NCBI RefSeq assembly: GCF_044324875.1
Contig: NZ_CP172185.1
Source: Escherichia coli
Lineage (GTDB): Bacteria; Pseudomonadota; Gammaproteobacteria; Enterobacterales; Enterobacteriaceae
Strand: one strand, 5' to 3'
Length of the DNA: 64,000 nt
A program made the translations under genes and the position numbers. The notes below the pieces were generated by a model, which was given only the letters and a program-made list of their open reading frames with translations, made no database searches and was not told the origin of the DNA. Positions 33,968 to 33,983 of this stretch are shown here, one piece after another. Every line of letters begins with the position of its first letter. Position 1 is the first letter of the stretch.

Positions 33968-33983
33968 TTAATTTTCTGGCACG
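33968..33983 (+). promoter_or_regulatory. sigma-54 (-24/-12) promoter of rtcBA
   Basis: TGGCAC-N5-TTGCA read directly, about 50 bp upstream of rtcB. Confidence 0.7.

What the first reader, a model, noticed from the sequence alone, without database searches (positions are those of the whole stretch)
33968..33983. Clear sigma-54 promoter for the RNA-repair operon rtcBA with divergent activator rtcR
TGGCAC-N5-TTGCA lies upstream of rtcB, and rtcR encodes a sigma-54 activator with the GAFTGA motif. This is a known system, but a good internal control for motif reading in this window.
Basis: partly seen in the sequence, partly recalled or inferred. Interest (0 to 1): 0.2.

Follow-up and report, generated by a model that had tools for sequence, protein, structure and literature searches.

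The report
Known sigma-54 promoter of rtcBA

Summary
The motif TGGCACGACGGTTGCA (TGGCAC-N5-TTGCA) is real and is the only exact match in the window. It lies at 33977-33992 (+), not at the stated 33968-33983. [quoted passage not shown] It is followed by rtcA and faces the divergent rtcR (32244-33842, minus strand).

RtcR has the RtcR/CARF N-terminal domain, a sigma-54 interaction AAA+ domain and GAFTGA at residues 265-270.

The window is E. coli. From 33943 to the rtcB ATG, the sequence is base-for-base identical to K-12 MG1655. In K-12 this exact 17-mer is a sigma-54 ChIP-seq site (Bonocora 2015, site OS35), flagged as experimentally confirmed in EcoCyc, with a predicted start 28 nt before rtcB.

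A divergent sigma-54 motif sits 127-176 nt from rtcR in 20 of 25 usable rtcR loci from other genera and phyla.

The likely mechanism is the classical enhancer-dependent one. RtcR, held off by its CARF domain until RNA damage signals arrive, binds upstream, loops to the closed sigma-54 holoenzyme complex, and drives open-complex formation with ATP.

I also infer a candidate RtcR enhancer (CGATA-N6-TATCG, 33865-33880) and an IHF-like site (33937-33949).

Verdict: already known and ordinary. It works well as an internal control.

The parts
33977..33992 (+). Sigma-54 core promoter of rtcBA: TGGCACGACGGTTGCA, with GG at -25/-24 (33978-33979) and GC at -13/-12 (33990-33991).
   Evidence: Read directly. 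Unique exact match in the window. Identical to the K-12 sigma-54 ChIP-seq site OS35 and to the listing at -54..-37. TCTGGCACG and GTTGCAA are invariant in the alignment of 9 Enterobacteriaceae sequences.
34003..34003 (+). Predicted transcription start, the C of the ApC at 34002-34003.
   Evidence: It lies 12 nt downstream of the C of the -12 GC. Bonocora's rule (19 bp after the motif centre, 28 nt to rtcB) gives the same base. The in vitro assay on the native PrtcBA used an ApC primer at -1/+1 (PMC9650030), and the window reads AC at 34002-34003. This is inferred; the primary primer-extension data (Genschik 1998) could not be read.
34003..34030 (+). 28-nt 5' untranslated leader: CAGCAAACAACGAAAAGAGAAAAACAAA.
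   Evidence: Part of it (AACAACGrAA) is conserved across Enterobacteriaceae.
34031..35257 (+). rtcB, RNA 3'-phosphate / 2',3'-cyclic phosphate to 5'-OH ligase, 408 aa.
   Evidence: PF01139, 447 bits. 406 of 408 residues identical to K-12 RtcB, and the catalytic His337 is present. Annotated rtcB in identical E. coli genomes.
35261..36277 (+). rtcA, RNA 3'-terminal phosphate cyclase, 338 aa from the start annotated in K-12. The open frame begins one codon earlier, at 35258, directly abutting the rtcB stop.
   Evidence: NF003247, 769 bits. 326 of 338 residues identical to K-12, and His308 is present.
32244..33842 (-). rtcR, the divergent sigma-54 enhancer-binding activator, 532 aa. It has the RtcR/CARF N-terminal domain (2-185), an AAA+ sigma-54 interaction domain (187-354; Walker A GPTGAGKS at 215, GAFTGA at 265, Walker B LFLDEIGE at 286) and a C-terminal region.
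   Evidence: NF038308, 848 bits against a cut-off of 650. PF06956 and PF00158. Motif positions. 520 of 532 residues identical to K-12.
33865..33880 (.). Candidate RtcR enhancer (UAS): the perfect palindrome CGATA-N6-TATCG, centred about -130 from the predicted start. It overlaps a weak -10-like GATAAT that reads towards rtcR.
   Evidence: Inference. It is the most conserved block outside the -24/-12 in Enterobacteriaceae. GATA/TATC inverted pairs lie within 110 nt of rtcR in 12 of 26 loci, against 0.86 expected from shuffles and 0.6% of other windows of the same loci. No nucleotide-level RtcR site was found in the papers read.
33937..33949 (+). Candidate IHF site AAACAATAAATTA (one mismatch to WATCAANNNNTTR), in the AT-rich spacer between the candidate UAS and the promoter.
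   Evidence: Inference from sequence. Iodobacter, Accumulibacter, three Pseudomonas loci and Superficieibacter each have a perfect WATCAANNNNTTR in the spacer between the candidate UAS and the -24 element. An 'rtc IHF binding site' is mentioned, without sequence, in PMC9650030.
33888..33907 (.). GGCTTTGCGGGAAATCTCCG, the reverse complement of an element reported as bound by over-expressed AtoC in ChIP (rtcB-rtcR intergenic).
   Evidence: PMC3118216 lists CGGAGATTTCCCGCAAAGCC for rtcB-rtcR. The sequence is present in the window. It is conserved within Escherichia but not in the other Enterobacteriaceae genera aligned (K. oxytoca, Intestinirhabdus, Superficieibacter). Its relevance to rtcBA control was not tested here.
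36290..36315 (.). Hairpin (8-bp stem AGCCGGAT/ATCCGGCT, 10-nt loop) in the 42-nt gap between the convergent rtcA and malT. It is the likely 3' end of the operon.
   Evidence: -12.2 kcal/mol, z = -1.6, not significant on its own. No T-run follows on the + strand, and the consensus terminator scan did not call it.

Best explanation
Window 33977-33992 is the -24/-12 core promoter of the E. coli rtcBA RNA-repair operon. Sigma-54 RNA polymerase binds it as a stable closed complex and cannot start transcription alone. RtcR, encoded divergently, is a CARF/AAA+/DNA-binding enhancer-binding protein. Its N-terminal CARF domain keeps the AAA+ ATPase off until RNA damage signals arrive; the literature proposes tRNA fragments with 2',3'-cyclic phosphate ends, with RtcA and RtcB themselves participating. 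Active RtcR oligomers bound upstream contact sigma-54 through the GAFTGA loop by DNA looping and use ATP hydrolysis to open the promoter. Their binding site is probably the conserved CGATA-N6-TATCG palindrome about 130 bp upstream, and looping is probably helped by IHF bending in the AT-rich spacer. Transcription then starts at about 34003 and runs through a 28-nt leader, rtcB and rtcA.

Shown here: the motif, its spacing and uniqueness, the gene identities, the identity to the documented K-12 promoter, and conservation across taxa.

Taken from the literature: sigma-54 occupancy, RtcR and RpoN dependence, CARF repression.

Inferred: the exact start site, the UAS and the IHF site.
For: The exact motif has canonical spacing, is unique in the window, and lies 54 nt before rtcB.

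RtcR, RtcB and RtcA all score above their curated family cut-offs. GAFTGA and the Walker motifs are present. Catalytic His337 (RtcB) and His308 (RtcA) are present.

The window is E. coli, with 100% matches annotated rtcR/rtcB. From 33943 to the rtcB ATG, the sequence is identical to K-12.

Literature on that identical sequence:
- Sigma-54 ChIP-seq peak OS35, fold-above-threshold 17, PSSM 11.16, EcoCyc 'confirmed', start 28 nt from rtcB.
- Listed as a known sigma-54 promoter.
- rtcBA is activated by RtcR through sigma-54, and RtcR lacking its N-terminal domain is constitutive.
- The Salmonella homologue TGGCACGCTGGTTGCAAT is bound by sigma-54 and is sigma-54-dependent.

Comparative evidence:
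- A divergent-strand sigma-54 motif lies 132-176 nt from rtcR in 18 loci, with 2 weaker ones at 127-129 nt. The loci come from gamma-, beta- and delta-proteobacteria and Verrucomicrobia. None lies on the rtcR strand.
- Motif density is 2.4 per kb against 0.10 per kb background.
- TCTGGCACG and GTTGCAA are invariant across Enterobacteriaceae while the spacer diverges.
- Within E. coli, the 61 bp from -33 to the ATG is identical in 2719 genomes, against 153 genomes for a 61-bp spacer segment.
Against: Nothing in the sequence argues against it.

Caveats:
- The native promoter was reported as 'very weak in vitro'.
- Some inducing conditions raise rtcBA independently of RtcR, and RtcB is not fully abolished in a ΔrtcR strain.
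- The primary paper (Genschik et al. 1998) could not be read, so the mapped start site is second-hand.
- The UAS and IHF assignments rest only on conservation and consensus matching.
- 5 of 25 usable rtcR loci showed no convincing motif with my simple scoring.
Confidence: 0.95

Rival explanations
1. The motif is a chance match without promoter function.
For: Six of 100 shuffles of the window gave at least one exact match somewhere. Loose matches occur at chance frequency.
Against: The match sits in the one place and orientation where it is expected. It is identical to a ChIP-seq-verified site. Its -24 and -12 elements are invariant in the Enterobacteriaceae alignment, and a motif recurs in the same position next to rtcR in other phyla, enriched 24-fold over background.
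Confidence: 0.01
2. The sigma-54 promoter is real, but rtcBA is mainly expressed from another RtcR-independent promoter (for example a sigma-70 promoter) in the same intergenic region.
For: The native promoter is very weak in vitro. [quoted passage not shown] Residual RtcB is seen in ΔrtcR cells.
Against: No sigma-70-like -35/-10 pair was found on the + strand of the intergenic region, even with relaxed scoring. For the Salmonella version, the authors chose the cloned promoter region because it has no predicted sigma-70 promoter. RtcR-ΔNTD strongly induces the operon.
Confidence: 0.05
3. A second enhancer-binding protein, AtoC, co-activates the promoter through the element at 33888-33907.
For: ChIP with over-expressed His-AtoC was positive for CGGAGATTTCCCGCAAAGCC in the rtcB-rtcR intergenic region (PMC3118216). 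The element is present here.
Against: The element is conserved only within Escherichia. The ChIP used over-expressed protein. No effect on rtcBA transcription is reported in the passages read. RtcR dependence accounts for the known induction.
Confidence: 0.08

Closest known systems
E. coli K-12 rtcBA promoter (rtcBp) with RtcR (Genschik et al. 1998; sigma-54 ChIP-seq site OS35 of Bonocora et al. 2015)
   Same: The 16-nt core, the flanking bases, the 28-nt leader and the distance to rtcB are base-for-base identical. Gene order glpR-rtcR<>rtcB-rtcA-malT is the same.
   Different: There are only a few substitutions and a 1-nt indel, all upstream of 33945 in the spacer or next to rtcR. Proteins are 96-99.5% identical. 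glpR is intact here but is a pseudogene in MG1655.
Salmonella Typhimurium rsr-yrlBA-rtcBA promoter (STM3521)
   Same: TGGCACG-N4-TTGCAAT differs only in the four spacer bases (GCTG against ACGG). It is divergent from rtcR, bound by sigma-54 and RtcR-dependent (PMC7790460).
   Different: In Salmonella the first genes of the operon are rsr and the Y RNAs. Here rtcB follows the promoter directly, and Rfam finds no Y RNA or any other family in the window.
pspA promoter with PspF (classical sigma-54 promoter: UAS, IHF site, -24/-12, and a divergent activator gene)
   Same: Both have a divergent activator gene, an enhancer next to the activator's own start, an IHF-type bend site between the enhancer and the -24/-12, and feedback from operon products onto the activator. 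PspA acts on PspF, and RtcA/RtcB act on the RtcR CARF domain.
   Different: PspF lacks a regulatory N-terminal domain, whereas RtcR carries a CARF domain. The UAS, the IHF site and any autoregulation are inferred for rtc, not demonstrated here.

Membership tests
Sigma-54 (-24/-12) promoter | Conserved GG and GC dinucleotides exactly ten bases apart, within TGGCAC-N5-TTGCW. | tested here: met
   TGGCACGACGGTTGCA at 33977-33992, 11 of 11 specified bases.
Sigma-54 (-24/-12) promoter | Correct orientation and a short distance upstream of a gene, with the start about 12 nt after the GC. | tested here: met
   On the + strand, 54 nt before the rtcB ATG. The predicted start at 34003 matches the ApC primer used for the native promoter and Bonocora's 28-nt distance.
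Sigma-54 (-24/-12) promoter | Occupancy by sigma-54 holoenzyme and dependence on rpoN. | not testable with these tools
   Documented for the identical K-12 sequence by ChIP-seq and for the Salmonella homologue by ChIP-chip and ΔrpoN reporters.
Sigma-54 (-24/-12) promoter | A cognate enhancer-binding protein with a GAFTGA loop. | tested here: met
   The divergent rtcR has PF00158 (173 bits) and GAFTGA at 265-270.
Sigma-54 (-24/-12) promoter | An upstream activator sequence bound by the activator. | tested here: inconclusive
   The conserved palindrome CGATA-N6-TATCG at 33865-33880 is enriched next to rtcR in 12 of 26 loci. There are no binding data, and no published site was found.
RtcR (CARF-type sigma-54 activator) | Full-length match to the RtcR equivalog model, with the RtcR N-terminal (CARF) domain plus the AAA+ sigma-54 interaction domain. 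| tested here: met
   NF038308, 848.5 bits (cut-off 650) over residues 1-527. PF06956 at 2-185. PF00158 at 187-354.
rtcBA RNA repair operon | RtcB ligase followed by RtcA cyclase on one strand, both intact with catalytic histidines. | tested here: met
   PF01139, 447 bits. NF003247, 769 bits. The genes abut (35257/35258). His337 and His308 are present.

The most novel reading that the evidence does not exclude
The only part not already in the literature I could read is the enhancer. The perfect palindrome CGATA-N6-TATCG (33865-33880) lies 23-38 nt upstream of the rtcR start codon and about 130 bp upstream of the rtcBA start. I propose it as the RtcR binding site. GATA/TATC inverted pairs with the same 6-nt spacing occur in the Enterobacteriaceae, Pseudomonas and Accumulibacter loci, and one with a 4-nt spacer in Desulfogranum. 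The palindrome overlaps a -10-like GATAAT that reads towards rtcR. RtcR bound there would therefore both activate rtcBA and repress its own gene, as PspF does.
Probability: 0.4. Interest if true: 0.25.

Novelty: already known. Interest (0 to 1): 0.07.

Why it matters
It matters little as a discovery. The rtcBA sigma-54 promoter and RtcR have been known since 1998 and have been mapped genome-wide since.

Its value is as a positive control. It shows that the first-stage reader can recognise a true -24/-12 promoter and its activator from raw sequence.

The comparative footprint gives a concrete, testable candidate for the RtcR enhancer, which would help groups dissecting CARF-controlled transcription.

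Tried and rejected
- I could not read the primary paper (Genschik 1998) or Reitzer & Schneider 2001, so I relied on later papers that reproduce the sequence.
- I looked for a published nucleotide-level RtcR UAS or IHF site in PMC9650030 (main text and supplements) and by full-text search. None was found.
- I checked whether rtcR has its own sigma-54 promoter, because RegulonDB's sigma-54 set as quoted in PMC3118216 lists 'rtcR'. There is no GG-N10-GC on the minus strand of the intergenic region, so I rejected this.
- The sigma-70 consensus scan found nothing in the intergenic region. Relaxed scoring gave only two weak minus-strand candidates (8/12) for rtcR and none for rtcB.
- The Rfam scan of the whole window found no Y RNA or any other family.
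- The repeat finder gave only AT-rich short inverted repeats in the spacer, and I did not interpret them. The CCGTnnACGG element at 33904-33913 is conserved only within Escherichia, and one base of it differs in K-12, so it was not pursued.
- The hairpin after rtcA is not statistically distinguishable from shuffles.

Full report
**Observation.** Reading 33700-34300 shows ...aattttcTGGCACgacggTTGCAattatcaggacagc... The motif TGGCACGACGGTTGCA occupies 33977-33992 on the + strand. The finding's coordinates (33968-33983) read TTAATTTTCTGGCACG, so they cover only the -24 half and are shifted 9 nt to the left. The pattern TGGCAC-N5-TTGCA occurs once in the 64 kb window on either strand. The expected count is 0.06, and 6 of 100 shuffles gave a match somewhere. 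Allowing up to two mismatches gives 42 matches against 43 expected. So only the exact match, in its context, carries information. GG (33978-33979) and GC (33990-33991) have the canonical spacing.

**Context.** The motif lies in a 188-bp intergenic region between two divergent open reading frames.
- On the minus strand, 32244-33842 encodes a 532-aa protein. It matches the NCBIfam equivalog 'RNA repair transcriptional activator RtcR' at 848 bits (cut-off 650). It also matches Pfam RtcR (N-terminal, the CARF-type domain) and the sigma-54 interaction domain.
- This protein has Walker A at residue 215, GAFTGA at 265-270 and Walker B at 286.
- On the plus strand, 34031-35257 encodes RtcB (PF01139, 447 bits). 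35258/35261-36277 encodes RtcA (NF003247, 769 bits). Catalytic His337 and His308 are both in place.
- The flanks are glpG and glpR on the left and malT on the right.

**Identity with the documented promoter.** The region is E. coli. It has 100% matches in strain 042 and others, annotated rtcR/rtcB. The intergenic region is 98% identical to K-12 MG1655, and every difference lies upstream of 33945. From 33943 to the rtcB ATG, the sequence is identical.
- Bonocora et al. 2015 (PMC4591121) list CTGGCACGACGGTTGCA as intergenic sigma-54 ChIP-seq site OS35 for rtcB. Fold-above-threshold is 17, the PSSM score is 11.16, the predicted start is 28 nt from rtcB, and EcoCyc flags it 'C' for experimentally confirmed.
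- Zhao et al. 2010 (PMC2831329) list tttcTGGCACGACGGTTGCAATtatc at -54 to -37 among the known sigma-54 promoters. In the window, 34031 minus 54 is 33977.
- Kotta-Loizou et al. 2022 (PMC9650030) primed the native promoter with ApC at -1/+1. The window has AC at 34002-34003, twelve bases after the C of the -12 GC. This gives a start at 34003 and a 28-nt leader.
- I could not read the original paper, Genschik et al. 1998. Later papers cite it for the sigma-54 and RtcR dependence and for the constitutive activity of N-terminally truncated RtcR.

**Independent comparative test.** A scan of one genome per species with RtcR returned 26 rtcR loci (plus two loci with only partial matches to the AAA+ domain) from Escherichia, Klebsiella, Intestinirhabdus, Superficieibacter, Iodobacter, Accumulibacter, Pseudomonas, Desulfobulbales/Desulfovibrionales, Verrucomicrobia and Calditrichia.
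- I searched the 700 nt upstream of rtcR on both strands for GG-N10-GC with at least 9 of 11 consensus bases. This found a divergent-strand motif 132-176 nt from the rtcR start in 17 loci and one at 413 nt. It found none on the rtcR strand.
- Two more loci have TGGCATG-N4-(C/G)TGCT at 127-129 nt.
- Motif density is 2.4 per kb in the 300 nt upstream of rtcR, against 0.10 per kb elsewhere in the same loci.
- Among nine Enterobacteriaceae sequences, TCTGGCACG and GTTGCAA are invariant while the spacer upstream is barely alignable between genera.
- Within E. coli, the 61 bp from -33 to the ATG is identical in 2719 complete genomes. A 61-bp segment of the spacer is identical in only 153.
- The Salmonella counterpart (TGGCACGCTGGTTGCAAT, upstream of rsr) binds sigma-54 and is sigma-54-dependent.

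**Anatomy upstream (inferred).** The second conserved block in the Enterobacteriaceae alignment abuts rtcR. It comprises the rtcR Shine-Dalgarno sequence (AAGGAT on the minus strand), then ATAAAAGA, then the perfect palindrome CGATA-N6-TATCG at 33865-33880. The palindrome is centred about 130 bp upstream of the predicted start.
- GATA/TATC inverted pairs lie within 110 nt of rtcR in 12 of 26 loci. Eleven have a 6-nt spacer (Enterobacteriaceae, Pseudomonas, Accumulibacter) and one has a 4-nt spacer (Desulfogranum). Shuffles give 0.86 expected, and 0.6% of other windows of the same loci contain one.
- I propose this palindrome as the RtcR enhancer. I found no published nucleotide-level site.
- Between it and the promoter is an AT-rich spacer. 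The E. coli sequence AAACAATAAATTA (33937-33949) is one mismatch from the IHF consensus WATCAANNNNTTR. Iodobacter, Accumulibacter, three Pseudomonas loci and Superficieibacter have perfect matches in the corresponding spacer. PMC9650030 mentions 'the rtc IHF binding site' without giving a sequence.
- The palindrome overlaps a weak -10-like GATAAT (with TTTCCC 16 bp upstream) reading towards rtcR. This would allow negative autoregulation and is speculative.
- There is no sigma-54-like motif towards rtcR.
- An element reported as bound by over-expressed AtoC in ChIP (PMC3118216) corresponds to 33888-33907. It is conserved only within Escherichia.

**Mechanism.** The best-supported reading is the classical enhancer-dependent pathway.
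1. Sigma-54 holoenzyme sits on 33977-33992 as a closed complex.
2. RtcR is held inactive by its CARF domain. It is released by RNA damage signals: tRNA fragments ending in 2',3'-cyclic phosphate in Salmonella, with RtcA and RtcB required and binding the CARF domain in E. coli.
3. RtcR oligomerises at the upstream site, loops to the promoter, engages sigma-54 through the GAFTGA loop and hydrolyses ATP to open the DNA.
4. Transcription starts near 34003 and yields the rtcB-rtcA mRNA. A hairpin at 36290-36315, between rtcA and the convergent malT, may mark its 3' end, but it is not significant on its own.

**Caveats.** The native promoter is weak in vitro, and some induction is RtcR-independent.

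**Verdict.** The feature is already known, and interest is low. The most novel residue is the candidate RtcR enhancer and possible autoregulation.

Noticed in passing
window ~32628-35860: About 10% of complete E. coli genomes lack this promoter. 5425 of 5426 genomes match the glpR-malT query, but only 4847 cover at least 80% of it. Genomes such as strain GN03590 carry a ~3.2-kb deletion that fuses a 3' remnant of rtcR to a 3' remnant of rtcA (both annotated as partial pseudogenes) and removes the promoter and rtcB. The two flanks overlap by 14 nt at the junction, suggesting a microhomology deletion.
   Followed up: partly
window 13081-13097 (+), inside glgA (12585-14018): AAGGCATGTTTTATGCA is identical to Bonocora's intragenic sigma-54 ChIP-seq site IS43 in glgA. 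That site has fold-above-threshold 49, which is stronger occupancy than at rtcBA (17), and it points towards glgP.
   Followed up: partly
window 51491-51506 (-): TGGCACTGAACATGCT is a one-mismatch hit to the consensus. It corresponds to Bonocora's weak intragenic site IS42 in feoB, with fold-above-threshold 1.
   Followed up: partly
window ~16500-28590: About 12 kb lies between glgP and glpD here, where K-12 has only 615 bp (with yzgL). It contains a seven-gene chaperone-usher fimbrial operon: subunit, chaperone, usher, two minor subunits, a second chaperone and an adhesin-like protein. This is followed by an IS110-family transposase ORF and an IS21-family istA/istB pair.
   Followed up: partly
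window 31504-32262 (+): glpR is intact (252 aa, full-length match to the GlpR model), whereas it is annotated as a pseudogene in K-12 MG1655. Its 3' end overlaps the 3' end of the convergent rtcR by 19 nt.
   Followed up: no
window 33888-33907: This sequence is the reverse complement of the element CGGAGATTTCCCGCAAAGCC, reported as ChIP-positive for over-expressed AtoC in the rtcB-rtcR intergenic region (PMC3118216). It suggests possible cross-talk between two sigma-54 activators.
   Followed up: partly
L006, L009-L011, L024 (upstream of rtcR): In these loci (Intestinirhabdus, Superficieibacter, three Pseudomonas), rtcB lies about 1.9-2.2 kb from rtcR rather than directly after the promoter. 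Other genes therefore sit between the sigma-54 promoter and rtcB, perhaps rsr/Y RNA as in Salmonella. In Desulfobulbus and Desulfovibrio the order is rtcA then rtcB.
   Followed up: no
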